Source: a virus
Taxonomy: Duplodnaviria > Heunggongvirae > Uroviricota > Caudoviricetes
Virus record (IMG/VR): IMGVR_UViG_2872180393_000001
Direction: 5' to 3' (one strand)
DNA: 51,038 nucleotides
Shown: piece after piece, positions 6,001 to 9,000 of the stretch
Position numbering within the stretch: position 1 is the first letter of the stretch
Layout of the letters: every line of letters starts with the position of its first letter
Program-made: the position numbers

Positions 6001-9000
6001 AAGTTGTTTCTTTGATTTATCTCCCGCTTTACGCCAGTAACGAGCCTCAGCAATGTGATATTCTCTTTTTAATCGACTTAACTCTGGAGTTTTCGCCAGC
6101 TCTACCGGAATCATTTTGACCTCCATTTTTTATAGGCTTCGACGGCTTCACGAAACATCTTTTCATCGCCAATAAAAGTGGCGATAGTGAATTTAGTCTG
6201 GATAGCCATAAGTGTTTTATCCATTTTTGGGAACTCCTGGCTGATTAAGTACGTCGATGAGTCGTTTCCATCCGTCACGTAATTTACGGGTGATTCGTTC
6301 AAGTAAAGATTCGGAAGGGCAGCCAGCTGAGGTAGCCTGAGTTTAACGGACACTCCTTCCTGAAATAGAATGGCATCAGAAGGAGCTAATAATGAGCAGA
6401 AAAACCCAACGTTACTCTAAAGAGTTCAAAGCCGAAGCTGTCAGAACGGTTCTTGAAAATCAACTTTCGATCAGTGAAGGCGCTTCCCGATTATCCCTTC
6501 CTGAAGGCACTTTAGGACAATGGGTTACCGCCGCCAGAAAAGGGCTCGGTACTCCTGGTTCCCGCACGGTGGCTGAACTGGAATCTGAAATTCTGCAACT
6601 GCGTAAGGCGTTAAATGAAGCTCGCCTTGAGCGAGATATATTAAAAAAAGCAACAGCGTATTTTGCACAGGAGTCGCTGAAAAATACGCGTTAATCGAAC
6701 AATGGCGACAACAATTTCCCATTGAAGCGATGTGTCAGGTATTTGGTGTATCCAGGAGCGGTTATTACAACCGGGTACAGCATGAACCCTCAGACAGAAA
6801 ACAAAGTGATGAGCGGCTAAAACTGGAGATTAAGGTGGCACATATCCGCACTCGCGAAACATATGGAACCCGGCGGCTCCAGACGGAGCTGGCAGAGAAT
6901 GGCATCATCGTTGGTCGTGACCGACTGGCACGTCTTCGTAAGGAGCTAAGGCTACGCTGTAAGCAGAAACGCAAGTTCAGAGCGACTACGAACCCGAACC
7001 ACAATCTGCCAGTTGCGCCAAATCTGCTGAACCAGACGTTCGCTCCTACAGCACCAAATCAGGTCTGGGTGGCGGACCTGACGTATGTTGCCACACAGGA
7101 GGGATGGTTGTACCTAGCTGGCATCAAAGATGTTTATACGTGCGAAATTGTCGGCTACGCCATGGGAGAGCGCATGACAAAAGAGCTGACAGGTAAAGCC
7201 CTGTTTATGGCGCTCAGGAGCCAGCGCCCACCTGCCGGGCTAATCCACCACTCTGATCGAGGTTCACAGTACTGCGCATACGATTACCGGGTCATACAGG
7301 AGCAGTTTGGTCTGAAAACATCAATGTCGCGTAAAGGTAACTGTTACGACAACGCTCCGATGGAAAGCTTCTGGGGAACGCTGAAAAATGAGAGCCTGAG
7401 CCACTATCGTTTTAATAACCGGGATGAAGCCATCTCAGTAATACGGGAATACATTGAGATTTTCTACAATCGTCAGCGTCGTCACTCTCGTCTGGGGAAT
7501 ATCTCCCCGGCAGCCTTCAGGGAAAAATATCATCATATGGCTGCTTAAAAAAAGAACAAATGGTAGTGTCCGCTATTGCCAGTACACCTCAAGCAACAGG
7601 CCACCCTGCAATGGCATATTGCATGGTGTGCTCCTTATTTACGCTTTAAATTGCTCCGTGTATTCACTCGTTGGAATGAATACACAGTGCAGTGTTTATT
7701 CTGTTGTTTATGCCAAAAATAAAGACCAACTATGCGGCCTCGGAAGGAAGTCCAATCATCTTATTCAAATCTTCTACCCGTAAAGCAGGAAGTGCTGTAC
7801 TTGCTTTATCTGCTTCTTTTGGTAGCAATTCTTTGCTTTCAGGCCAAACTTCAATAAGTCGCTTAACTGTTGTGACTGAGTTCAAAGCAGCCCATACATT
7901 TGATTCGATATCCTTTTTCCTGGCTTTAAGTTTTTGTTGCAATGCGCAGATTTCATCAAACCTTTTTGTTATTTCGTGTTCAGCGCTAAACATGCATTTA
8001 TCTCTGGTCGGAGTAGGGAGCAATATATCTTCGCCGTTGCCGTCTTTCCCATATGAATACCATCCAACCCTTCTGCCAGATACAGTCAGATAAATTGAAG
8101 TAGAACGAACATCGCATGAGTAAAATGAACATCCCATCTTTTCAAGTTCTTCACTTATAGCTACCAACTTGGATGATAACTGATCCACTTCCTCAGTTTT
8201 CTTCTTCCCGCCAAACGCAACAACTCTGGCGTCAAGTGCAAGCTGGTTCTTTAGCTTTGTTACTTCTTCAAGTTCAGTGAACACCCCGGACTTAATTAAA
8301 GCGTTGCGTGCTATTACTTCTTTTATTCTCGTTGTTAAGCGGATTGATGACATATTAATTCCTCTCAAATAAGTGGTTTGCTGCCTGATTTCATTTTCTG
8401 GCGACCAACACAAGTCATCTTGCTGTCAGCTGTTTGGATTTCCTGTAGCCTGCCGCGTAAAGAGCTACGTTTGGAAGACATACACCAGTTTCTGGTTGCT
8501 TATGTCCAAACTCATTCGCGTACACAATGGCCGCTCGCTCCAGATTGCGTCTGTATTCTTTCTGTTGCCAGATCACGTCCTGTGCCATGAACTTAATTGG
8601 CTTAGCGTCTTCTATGCGCTCAGGCGTTTCGTGAGTACCTTTAGCCTGAATCTGTGCTCTGCTTAGAGTAGGGCGGTGTAATACTTCTGAACTTATTGCT
8701 TCTTCGCGGGCCAGCACGCCGTTAGCTAATGCCTTTGCCTTTAAACGCTCACGACGACGAGAACGTGAATTGCCTTTGAACTGAGTTCTGCGTGTCATAT
8801 AGACCTCCTGATGAACTTTGGTGGTGTGGTAGGTGGGAGACCCATTTTGACCTGTTTCGGCCTACTTCAATTCGGCAATAGTCCCGCAGGCCTCGCCGCT
8901 TTACGTGCGACATATTCCCGTCCATGAACCCTTCACCACACCCCAAAGTTCACTTTGGTTATTGCGCTTTGTCAGCGCCGTAGATTCATATTCGAATCGT

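What the first reader, a model, noticed from the sequence alone, without database searches (positions are those of the whole stretch)
7730..8353. Unknown 207-aa protein in the ral/sieB slot between N and cIII
On the pL early-left transcript, lambda carries ral (restriction alleviation) and sieB (superinfection exclusion) here. This window instead has a single ORF with a good RBS (GAGAGGAA) and no similarity I can recognise to Ral, SieB or other named families. It is a candidate anti-restriction or exclusion gene.
Basis: partly seen in the sequence, partly recalled or inferred. Interest (0 to 1): 0.5.

Follow-up and report, generated by a model that had tools for sequence, protein, structure and literature searches.

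The report
Nmad5-family early gene behind N
The 207-codon gene between N and cIII is real. It belongs to a widespread, already named phage protein family (Nmad5, PF18757) whose function has never been shown, so it is a known orphan gene and not a new kind of gene.

Summary
The ORF at 7730-8353 (minus strand) is confirmed: ATG at 8353, RBS GAGAGGAA, 61 nt behind an H-19B/933W-type N gene and upstream of cIII. Here cIII is split by an IS600. The protein matches Pfam PF18757 (Nmad5) over its full length (E = 3.9e-71). RefSeq already names near-identical proteins "Nmad5 family putative nucleotide modification protein".

The family is large: 2275 clusters at 50% identity. All 239 listed members are stand-alone proteins of 95-229 aa. 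dN/dS is about 0.23. The model is confident (pLDDT 85.6), mostly helical, and has no relative among solved structures. It shows no enzyme fold, no fusion and no constant neighbour gene.

The window has no base-hypermodification genes. Phage mEp235 carries the gene with no DNA-modifying enzyme at all. The M6 hypermodification pathway was reconstituted in vitro without its Nmad5.

In lambdoid phages Nmad5 is one optional cassette in an ordered string that also includes ral, gp17, SieB and Ea10. It co-occurs with ral instead of replacing it.

My best reading is a non-catalytic early accessory protein acting on phage DNA metabolism or host interference. This is an inference. Novelty: already known. 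Interest is modest.

The parts
7730..8353 (-). nmad5 coding sequence, 207 aa, Pfam PF18757 (Nmad5), PHROG 1965
   Evidence: ORF listing and sequence. Pfam E = 3.9e-71, covering residues 4-203 of the protein and positions 1-206 of the 206-position model. PHROG 1965 E = 1.6e-82. dN/dS median 0.23. AlphaFold model pLDDT 85.6.
8359..8366 (-). Shine-Dalgarno-like GAGAGGAA, 5 nt before the ATG
   Evidence: Read directly from the sequence.
7745..7879 (-). Codons 159-203, the most conserved part of the family: S-V-T-T-x-K-R-L-x3-W-P-E-x2-E-L-x-P ... L-P-A ... L-N-x2-I-G-L-P
   Evidence: Column conservation in 46 diverse members; L166, E172 and N197 are invariant. These 60 C-terminal residues alone hit Nmad5 at 3e-27.
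7859..7861 (-). Codon R165, the position equivalent to the Lys216Glu Tmn-escape substitution of Dhillonvirus SM_A8 Nmad5
   Evidence: BLASTP alignment of the window protein with the SM_A8 protein. The escape mutation is reported in PMC11846954.
8415..8798 (-). N antitermination gene (H-19B/933W type by my recollection), immediately upstream
   Evidence: PF25694 at 9.8e-16 and PHROG 271. N-type gene found upstream in 79 of 80 Nmad5-carrying lambdoid loci.
8964..8978 (-). boxB-like hairpin GCGCTGACAAAGCGC (nutL candidate) between the promoter-like site and N
   Evidence: Read from the sequence. Its identity with P22-type boxB is from my memory and was not tested.
9047..9075 (-). Sigma-70 promoter-like site TTGACC-17-TATCTT (pL candidate)
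   Evidence: Consensus scan. Only 2 sites were found in 7500-9400 and neither is adjacent to nmad5. This is a consensus match only.
7592..7624 (-). First 11 codons of cIII, cut off by the IS600
   Evidence: Comparison with the uninterrupted prophage of E. coli FDAARGOS_944; tblastn with lambda cIII.
6328..7591 (+). IS600 (IS3 family) inserted in cIII, with a 3-bp target duplication AGC
   Evidence: Breakpoints from blastn against L002. RefSeq annotates the same element as IS600 at 99.8% identity. Flanking sequence read.
6217..6327 (-). Remaining 3' part of cIII. Joined to 7592-7624 it gives an intact 46-aa lambda-type cIII
   Evidence: In-silico removal of the IS and translation.
7722..7741 (-). 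Weak terminator-like hairpin plus T-run overlapping the nmad5 stop codon
   Evidence: Pattern scan found 3 sites against 2.2 expected by chance, so this is not significant.

Best explanation
The ORF encodes a stand-alone member of the phage protein family Nmad5 (PF18757). It is an optional accessory gene placed directly behind N, so it should be made early from the leftward early promoter once N allows read-through.

The product is a soluble, mildly basic 23-kDa protein. The model shows a long helical bundle, a small beta-sheet insert and a strongly conserved C-terminal module (TxK[KR]L-x3-WPE ... LPA ... LN-x2-IGLP).

My best reading is that it is not an enzyme. I think it is a self-sufficient binding or adaptor protein that acts on phage DNA metabolism, at the interface of replication, recombination and modification, or on a conserved host component that interferes with that metabolism. 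It would be conditionally useful and dispensable in the laboratory. I expect the conserved basic pair K164/R165 to be part of the binding surface.

Shown here:
- the gene is real, intact and under purifying selection;
- family membership;
- its position in the operon;
- no recognisable enzyme fold, no domain fusion and no conserved partner gene;
- dispensability;
- independence from any phage-encoded DNA-modifying enzyme.

Inferred only:
- that it binds DNA or a protein;
- which target it binds;
- that the benefit is protection against host interference.

I put family identity at about 0.97. The confidence value below is for the mechanism.
For: Identity:
- Pfam Nmad5 at 3.9e-71 over the full length.
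- RefSeq names near-identical proteins as the Nmad5 family.

Real gene:
- dN/dS median 0.23.
- 2275 clusters at E <= 1e-3.

Not enzyme-like:
- The model has pLDDT 85.6.
- Foldseek against the PDB gave nothing below E = 0.1.
- A profile search of PDB sequences found nothing.
- BFVD returned only other Nmad5 or uncharacterised phage proteins.
- Only L166, E172 and N197 are invariant in 46 diverse members.

Self-sufficient:
- All 150 best representatives and all 89 profile hits are single-domain proteins of 95-229 aa.
- Neighbours within 3 genes in 15 diverse viral loci share no common family.

Links to DNA metabolism and the early phase:
- It lies behind N and before the recombination genes in lambdoid phages.
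- It lies between ThyX and the primase, next to PolI, in N4-like phage SP154.
- It lies near a primase and helicase, or near DUF2800/PD-(D/E)XK, the Enc34 SSB and PolA, in other loci.
- It holds a fixed position between HMUDK_hel and thymidylate-synthase-like genes in M6-type clusters.

Not a required catalyst:
- M6 5-NedU synthesis was reconstituted with gp51, gp52, gp53 and gp54 only; gp56, the M6 Nmad5, was not among the proteins used (PMC8989533).

No phage-encoded enzyme partner needed:
- mEp235 carries a 95%-identical copy and has no methyltransferase or other DNA-modifying gene.
- The window has no homologue of M6 gp51-55 or gp58.

Accessory and dispensable:
- The slot content varies behind the same N allele.
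- nmad5 is split by an IS element in at least 9 listed Stx2a phage records.
- Its GC content is 41% against 51% for the window.

Host-interaction link:
- A Dhillonvirus Nmad5 Lys-to-Glu change, at the position of R165 here, lets the phage escape Tmn.
- Deleting the gene does not give escape, and the gene could not be cloned, apparently because it is toxic (PMC11846954).
- Tmn is triggered by T2 RIIB, which that preprint describes as an early replisome-anchoring protein (PMC13001434).
Against: - No binding activity, partner or phenotype has been shown for any family member, so the mechanism rests on context and on exclusion of alternatives.
- Genomic contexts do not converge. They include head-gene regions and the nin region, which weakens a specific tie to replication or recombination.
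- In at least three sampled contexts the gene sits beside nucleotide- or DNA-modifying genes. That keeps a modification-linked role alive.
- The absence of an enzyme fold rests on a predicted structure. A novel catalytic fold cannot be excluded.
- The Tmn data concern a protein that aligns to this one only over its C-terminal half, at 33% identity. They show a gain-of-function-like escape, not the wild-type function.
Confidence: 0.4

Rival explanations
1. Direct anti-restriction or anti-defence inhibitor. Nmad5 would bind and neutralise a particular host defence protein, such as a restriction enzyme or an abortive-infection sensor, as Ral, Ocr or Gam do.
For: - It sits in the N-cIII hot spot, which also holds ral, P22 gp17 and SieB homologues.
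- It is optional, has low GC and is stand-alone.
- It lies beside DNA-hypermodification genes, themselves anti-restriction devices, in M6-type phages.
- A point mutation in a Dhillonvirus homologue defeats Tmn (PMC11846954).
Against: - It is not acidic (pI 8.6), so it is not an Ocr/ArdA-type DNA mimic.
- It has no sequence similarity to Ral or Gam.
- It co-occurs with ral at the background rate, so it is not a functional substitute for Ral.
- Wild-type Dhillonvirus Nmad5 does not protect against Tmn; only the mutant does.
- The family spans hosts from Enterobacteria to Pseudomonas, Vibrio, Bordetella and an alphaproteobacterial phage. That argues for a very conserved target, not one specific defence protein.
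Confidence: 0.2
2. Non-catalytic cofactor of DNA-modifying enzymes, the reading implied by the Pfam name. Nmad5 would recruit or stimulate base-modifying enzymes on DNA. In lambdoid phages these would be the phage Dam or host methyltransferases, a Ral-like logic.
For: - The order HMUDK_hel - Nmad5 - thymidylate-synthase homologue is conserved in two divergent thymidine-hypermodification clusters.
- It is adjacent to ThyX in N4-like phage SP154.
- It is one gene away from a Dam and two from a C5 methyltransferase in an Aeromonas prophage.
- The window itself encodes a phage Dam (PF05869) at 16715-17302.
Against: - The M6 pathway works in vitro without gp56.
- mEp235 has Nmad5 but no DNA-modifying enzyme.
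- None of 15 diverse viral loci has a modifying enzyme within 3 genes.
- Dhillonvirus and most lambdoid copies have no such neighbours.
- In the window the Dam is 9 kb away, on the other early operon.
Confidence: 0.2
3. Superinfection exclusion or abortive-infection factor that protects the lysogen, like SieB or Rex.
For: - The slot is shared with SieB homologues.
- The Dhillonvirus homologue is reported as toxic when cloned.
Against: - It has no hydrophobic segment: the maximum Kyte-Doolittle 19-residue mean is 0.6. The lambda and cassette C14 SieB sequences seen have long hydrophobic stretches.
- No promoter-like site lies next to the gene, so expression in a repressed lysogen is not expected.
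- There is no match in PADLOC.
- The family is common in virulent phages: Dhillonvirus, N4-like and M6-like.
Confidence: 0.07
4. A true nucleotide- or DNA-modifying enzyme with a novel fold. The Dhillonvirus paper calls it a 'DNA modification enzyme'.
For: - The family name, and the statement in PMC11846954.
- An often conserved A-[DE]-H-x-L motif around residues 124-128.
Against: - It has no similarity to any solved enzyme fold.
- Very few polar positions are invariant.
- It occurs without any substrate-supplying genes in most genomes.
- It is not needed for M6 chemistry.
- The paper gives no biochemical evidence.
Confidence: 0.05

Closest known systems
Nmad5 family (Pfam PF18757; PHROG 1965), for example E. 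coli prophage protein WP_038341315.1 and phage mEp235 gp37
   Same: Full-length homology: 99.9% DNA identity to E. coli FDAARGOS_944 and 95% protein identity to mEp235. Same length, same slot behind N, and the same conserved C-terminal motif.
   Different: Essentially nothing. This is the same gene. In the window the downstream cIII is broken by IS600.
Dhillonvirus Nmad5 (phages SMA8 and SMS22), the only member with published genetics
   Same: The C-terminal half aligns at 33% identity over 101 residues, with the same TxK[KR]L...WPE...LN..G.P motif. The Tmn-escape Lys216 aligns with R165 here.
   Different: It is longer (254 aa or more) with a divergent N-terminal half. It lies on the opposite strand between head genes of a virulent phage. 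Its wild-type function is also unknown.
Pseudomonas phage M6 gp56 (ORF056) in the 5-NedU thymidine-hypermodification cluster
   Same: Nmad5 member with 33% identity over the C-terminal 88 residues.
   Different: It is embedded between the hypermodification genes and the dUMP hydroxymethylase. The window has none of these genes. gp56 was not among the proteins used to reconstitute the pathway.
Lambda Ral (restriction alleviation)
   Same: A small accessory early gene in the same N-cIII interval, transcribed from pL.
   Different: There is no sequence similarity, and Ral is 66 aa against 207 aa. Ral and Nmad5 occur together in tandem in 9 of 80 loci, so they are not alternatives.
Lambda SieB and P22 gp17 (exclusion and anti-exclusion genes of the same slot)
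   Same: They occupy the same variable interval between N and cIII.
   Different: There is no similarity. The lambda and cassette C14 SieB sequences have long hydrophobic stretches, and SieB homologues are encoded on the opposite strand in lambda and in the sampled loci. Nmad5 has no hydrophobic segment and lies in the operon orientation.

Membership tests
Nmad5 (PF18757) | Full-length profile match above the curated threshold | tested here: met
   239.8 bits against a cutoff of 27, E = 3.9e-71, residues 4-203 on model positions 1-206 of 206.
Nmad5 (PF18757) | Conserved C-terminal motif (T-x-K-[KR]-L ... W-P-E ... L-x-P ... L-P-A ... L-N-x2-I-G-L-P) and the N-terminal R-L-T ... N-A ... K-x-G motif | tested here: met
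   All nearly invariant columns of 46 diverse members are present in the window protein.
Nmad5 (PF18757) | Stand-alone single-domain protein of about 200 aa | tested here: met
   The window protein is 207 aa. All 150 best representatives and all 89 profile hits are single-domain, 95-229 aa.
Nmad5 (PF18757) | Gene-neighbourhood association with nucleotide- or base-modification genes, the basis of the family name (as I recall it; not checked against Pfam's text) | tested here: not met
   The window has no homologue of the M6 hypermodification genes. The neighbours are N and cIII. The only modifying enzyme is a Dam 9 kb away. This feature describes part of the family and is not a membership criterion.
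Nmad5 (PF18757) | A defined biochemical activity | not testable with these tools
   None is published. M6 chemistry was reconstituted without the family member.
Ral (lambda restriction alleviation) | Sequence homology to the 66-aa lambda Ral | tested here: not met
   BLASTP gave no hit at E <= 10, and tblastn found no ral in the window.
Ral (lambda restriction alleviation) | Functional equivalence, which would predict mutual exclusion with ral in the slot | tested here: not met
   ral is present in 9 of 80 Nmad5-positive loci and 5 of 49 Nmad5-negative loci, Fisher p = 1.0. The tandem order is orf28-ral then Nmad5.
SieB (PF14163) | Profile match and hydrophobic membrane segments | tested here: not met
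   There is no PF14163 hit. The maximum 19-residue hydropathy is 0.6. A true SieB homologue in the same slot of other phages is detected at 1.5e-19.
DNA-mimic anti-restriction proteins (Ocr/ArdA type) | Strongly acidic protein | tested here: not met
   pI is 8.6, with 33 K+R against 30 D+E.
Known anti-phage defence system components (PADLOC-DB) | Profile match to any defence protein model | tested here: not met
   0 families at E <= 1.

The most novel reading that the evidence does not exclude
'Nucleotide modification' may be a misnomer for most of this family. Nmad5 would then be a very widespread, self-sufficient, non-enzymatic phage factor, with more than 2000 clusters from Enterobacteria to Pseudomonas and Vibrio phages. 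It would act on a deeply conserved host target or on DNA itself to protect or reprogramme phage DNA metabolism, and membrane defence systems such as Tmn would monitor it. The lambdoid copy behind N would make the family genetically tractable in a lambda-type system.
Probability: 0.3. Interest if true: 0.6.

Novelty: already known. Interest (0 to 1): 0.3.

Why it matters
The gene is not a discovery. Identical or near-identical copies are common in E. coli and Shigella prophages, including Stx1 phages, and carry a family name.

What remains of value is that this large phage family has no demonstrated function. Two labels are in circulation: 'putative nucleotide modification protein', and 'DNA modification enzyme' in one paper. 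The fold, the genomic contexts and the published reconstitution data examined here do not support either label.

The gene sits in the classical ral/sieB/gp17 hot spot of easily manipulated lambdoid phages. A relative is genetically linked to the Tmn defence. A simple deletion and expression study in mEp235 or HK542 could therefore assign a function to more than 2000 protein clusters.

Tried and rejected
- NCBIfam and PADLOC scans gave no hits.
- BFVD returned only family members.
- The 'NMAD' domain in DefensePredictor's predicted defence systems turned out to be Nmad2, not Nmad5.
- I tested whether the C-terminal LxxLxVxDLNxxIGLP tail is half of a SAP/HeH/Rho_N DNA-binding motif. Nine diverse C-terminal 60-mers hit only Nmad5 even at E <= 10, so I rejected the idea.
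- I tested whether Nmad5 and ral are mutually exclusive alleles. They co-occur, so I rejected this too.
- I tested whether a phage-encoded methyltransferase is a necessary partner. mEp235 refutes it.
- Looking up distant representatives mostly gave contigs too short to be useful.
- Literature searches for accession numbers, PF18757 and phrog_1965 found nothing.
- The Iyer et al. 2013 paper, which I believe underlies the family, is not in the library.
- The OLD preprint that mentions HK542 is unrelated to this gene.
- The terminator-like hairpin at the stop codon is no better than chance.
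Full report
**Observation.** The minus strand carries an ORF from ATG 8353 to the stop at 7730, giving 207 aa. GAGAGGAA lies 5 nt upstream of the ATG. The mechanical ORF list extends it to a TTG at 8413.

The gene 61 nt upstream, 8415-8798 (minus), is an N antiterminator: PF25694 at 9.8e-16 and PHROG 271. Further upstream are a GCGCTGACAAAGCGC hairpin (8978-8964) and a promoter-like site (9075-9047), in the arrangement expected for pL-nutL-N. No promoter-like site lies between N and the ORF. Expression by N-dependent read-through is therefore inferred from the layout, not shown.

Downstream, cIII is present but split. A 1264-bp IS600 at 6328-7591 with a 3-bp duplication sits after cIII codon 11. 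Removing it in silico restores a 46-aa lambda-type cIII. tblastn finds no ral, sieB, ea10 or gp17 anywhere in the window.

**What it is.**
- It matches Pfam PF18757, 'Nucleotide modification associated domain 5' (Nmad5), over the whole model: E = 3.9e-71, 239.8 bits against a cutoff of 27. It also matches PHROG 1965, function unknown.
- RefSeq annotates near-identical E. coli prophage proteins as 'Nmad5 family putative nucleotide modification protein'. This includes a 99.9%-identical locus without the IS in strain FDAARGOS_944.
- Proteins 92-95% identical occur in phages mEp235, HK542, HK244 and Kapi1 and in Stx1-converting phages.
- Pairwise dN/dS against 72 distinct close homologues has a median of 0.23.
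- A profile search of 1.84 billion cluster representatives found 2275 clusters at E <= 1e-3.

So this is a real, conserved and already catalogued gene.

**The protein.**
- It is 23.1 kDa with pI 8.6 and has no hydrophobic segment.
- The AlphaFold model built on 29 sequences is confident: pLDDT 85.6, pTM 0.70. It shows three long helices (8-72), a small beta-sheet (about 86-100), a long helix (127-158), short C-terminal helices, and a conserved but low-confidence tail.
- BFVD returned only other Nmad5 or uncharacterised phage proteins.
- Conservation is concentrated in the C-terminal 50 residues: T162, K164, R165, L166, W170, P171, E172, L176, P178, L188-P189-A190, L196, N197, and I200-G201-L202-P203. 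Only L166, E172 and N197 are invariant in 46 diverse members.
- All 150 best representatives and all 89 hits of a second profile search are single-domain proteins of 95-229 aa, so there are no fusions.

Nothing here looks like a catalytic domain.

**The 'nucleotide modification' label.** The label has some basis. In Pseudomonas phage M6 and in two divergent metagenomic relatives, the gene sits between the HMUDK_hel gene and the thymidylate-synthase homologue of the thymidine-hypermodification cluster. In an N4-like Salmonella phage it follows ThyX. In an Aeromonas prophage it is one gene from a Dam and two from a C5 methyltransferase.

Several results argue against a general role in modification:
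- M6 5-NedU synthesis was reconstituted with gp51, gp52, gp53 and gp54. The M6 Nmad5, gp56, was not among the proteins used (PMC8989533).
- The window has no homologue of the M6 enzymes.
- The complete, viable phage mEp235 carries the gene with no DNA-modifying enzyme of any kind.
- Neighbours within 3 genes in 15 diverse viral loci include repressors, N, gp17, DUF2800/PD-(D/E)XK, the Enc34 SSB, AAA_24, DUF669 and PolA, but no modifying enzyme.
- Other members sit between head genes (Dhillonvirus, L253, L254), in the nin region (SPN3UB), or beside a primase and helicase.

The one constant is that the gene is single and portable, and is inserted at module boundaries.

**The slot.** Behind N alleles at least 99% identical to the window's, the interval up to cIII varies widely. 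It contains:
- a 156-aa protein of unknown family (32 of 55 loci);
- Ea10/DUF2528 (20 loci);
- 354-aa and 75-aa unknown proteins;
- Nmad5 (6 of those 55 loci; 10 of the 79 N-selected loci by tblastn);
- a P22 gp17 homologue (PF17420);
- a SieB homologue (PF14163);
- orf28-ral.

In 80 Nmad5-carrying loci the cassettes keep a fixed order: N, then [75 aa], [orf28-ral], Nmad5, [156 aa], [98 aa or gp17], [Ea10], [354 aa], and cIII. Here ral co-occurs with Nmad5 in 9 of 80 loci, the same rate as in Nmad5-negative loci (5 of 49). Nmad5 is therefore an additional optional module of the classical ral/sieB/gp17 hot spot, not a replacement for ral or sieB.

It is also dispensable. In at least nine listed Stx2a-converting phage records the match begins only at residue 34 and a second match lies elsewhere in the record. 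In the one record examined (LC616032) the gene is split at about codon 35 by a 1309-bp IS3-family element with a 4-bp duplication. Its GC content of 41%, against 51% for the window, fits a horizontally mobile accessory gene.

**Experimental literature.** Only one study touches the family. In Dhillonvirus phages, escape from the Tmn defence mapped to a Lys-to-Glu change in Nmad5. Reverting it restored sensitivity. Deleting the gene did not give escape. The gene could not be cloned, apparently because it is toxic (PMC11846954).

That lysine (K216 of SM_A8) aligns with R165 of the window protein, inside the most conserved motif. The paper calls Nmad5 a DNA modification enzyme but shows no biochemistry. 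A 2026 preprint reports that Tmn is activated directly by T2 RIIB, which it describes as an early replisome-anchoring protein (PMC13001434). Together these suggest that Nmad5 is made during infection and touches a process that host immunity watches. They do not reveal its wild-type role.

**Mechanism.** My best-supported reading is a non-catalytic, self-sufficient binding or adaptor protein made early. It would act on phage DNA metabolism or on a conserved host factor that interferes with it, and would be conditionally beneficial. I give this mechanism 0.4. I estimate family identity at about 0.97.

The rivals are:
- a direct inhibitor of one defence system (0.2);
- a cofactor for DNA-modifying enzymes, including host or phage Dam (0.2; the window does encode a Dam at 16715-17302);
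- a SieB-like exclusion factor (0.07);
- a true enzyme with a novel fold (0.05).

All steps beyond 'real, conserved, accessory, early-positioned, not enzyme-like, no partner gene' are inference.

**Verdict.** Novelty: already known, a catalogued family with identical copies in public genomes. Interest is modest (0.3). The worthwhile point is that a very large phage family with a probably misleading name sits in a genetically tractable lambdoid hot spot.

Noticed in passing
window 6328-7591, with cIII fragments at 7592-7624 and 6217-6327 (minus strand): An IS600 (1264 bp, 3-bp duplication AGC) is inserted after codon 11 of cIII. It should inactivate cIII and probably has polar effects on kil and the recombination genes further down the leftward operon. 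nmad5 is the last intact gene before it.
   Followed up: yes
window 23759-25022 (+), 39183-40446 (-), 48954-50217 (-): Three further IS600 copies, 99.6-99.8% identical to the first. Four copies in 51 kb suggests a decaying prophage in a Shigella-like, IS-rich genome. I did not examine what these copies interrupt.
   Followed up: partly
window 13354-16260 (+): A 968-aa Toprim/AAA_25 primase-helicase-type replication protein contains Hint and LAGLIDADG domains, which indicates an intein with a homing endonuclease.
   Followed up: no
L252 (Stx2a phage LC616032) 196-1504; equivalent window position about 8247-8250: In at least nine listed Stx2a-converting phage records the nmad5 match begins only at residue 34, with a second match elsewhere in the record. 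In the one record examined, LC616032, the gene is split at about codon 35 by a 1309-bp IS3-family element with a 4-bp duplication. RefSeq shows the same insertion in E. coli 2014C-3655.
   Followed up: yes
IMG/VR loci L170-L248, interval between N and cIII (for example L198 +62..+532 after N): The commonest cassette directly behind this N allele is a 156-aa protein (MTKSWSVPFPESETEHDG...) with no Pfam family, present in 32 of 55 loci. It is rarer in Nmad5-carrying loci (9 of 80), but the two sets are not matched for N type. Several other unknown cassettes of 75, 98, 107, 138, 149, 164 and 354 aa share the slot.
   Followed up: partly
window 16715-17302 (+): A phage Dam-type N6-adenine methyltransferase (PF05869, 3.5e-64) lies in the nin region. 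It is the only DNA-modifying enzyme found in the window.
   Followed up: partly
window 7730-7750 (C-terminal codons of nmad5); alignment A1: Many enterobacterial Nmad5 proteins end in -AA (...GLPSEAA, ...TEQAA, ...TSEAA). This is reminiscent of ssrA-like C-terminal ClpX degrons and could mean rapid turnover of a toxic protein. It rests on my recollection of degron rules and was not tested.
   Followed up: no
window 9603-10136 and 10326-10667 (minus strand): Two genes lie between the pL-like promoter region and the repressor (10705-11442): a 177-aa protein with no Pfam family and a DUF3024 protein. In O157 933W-type prophages the corresponding interval holds a Ser/Thr kinase (L003).
   Followed up: no
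window 4333-5917 (minus strand): The recombination module here is a Sak4-like ATPase (5237-5917), a 195-aa unknown protein, and Abc2 anti-RecBCD (4333-4629). The otherwise near-identical FDAARGOS_944 prophage has Gam-Bet-Exo instead. The mosaic joint lies at about window 6122, inside kil.
   Followed up: partly
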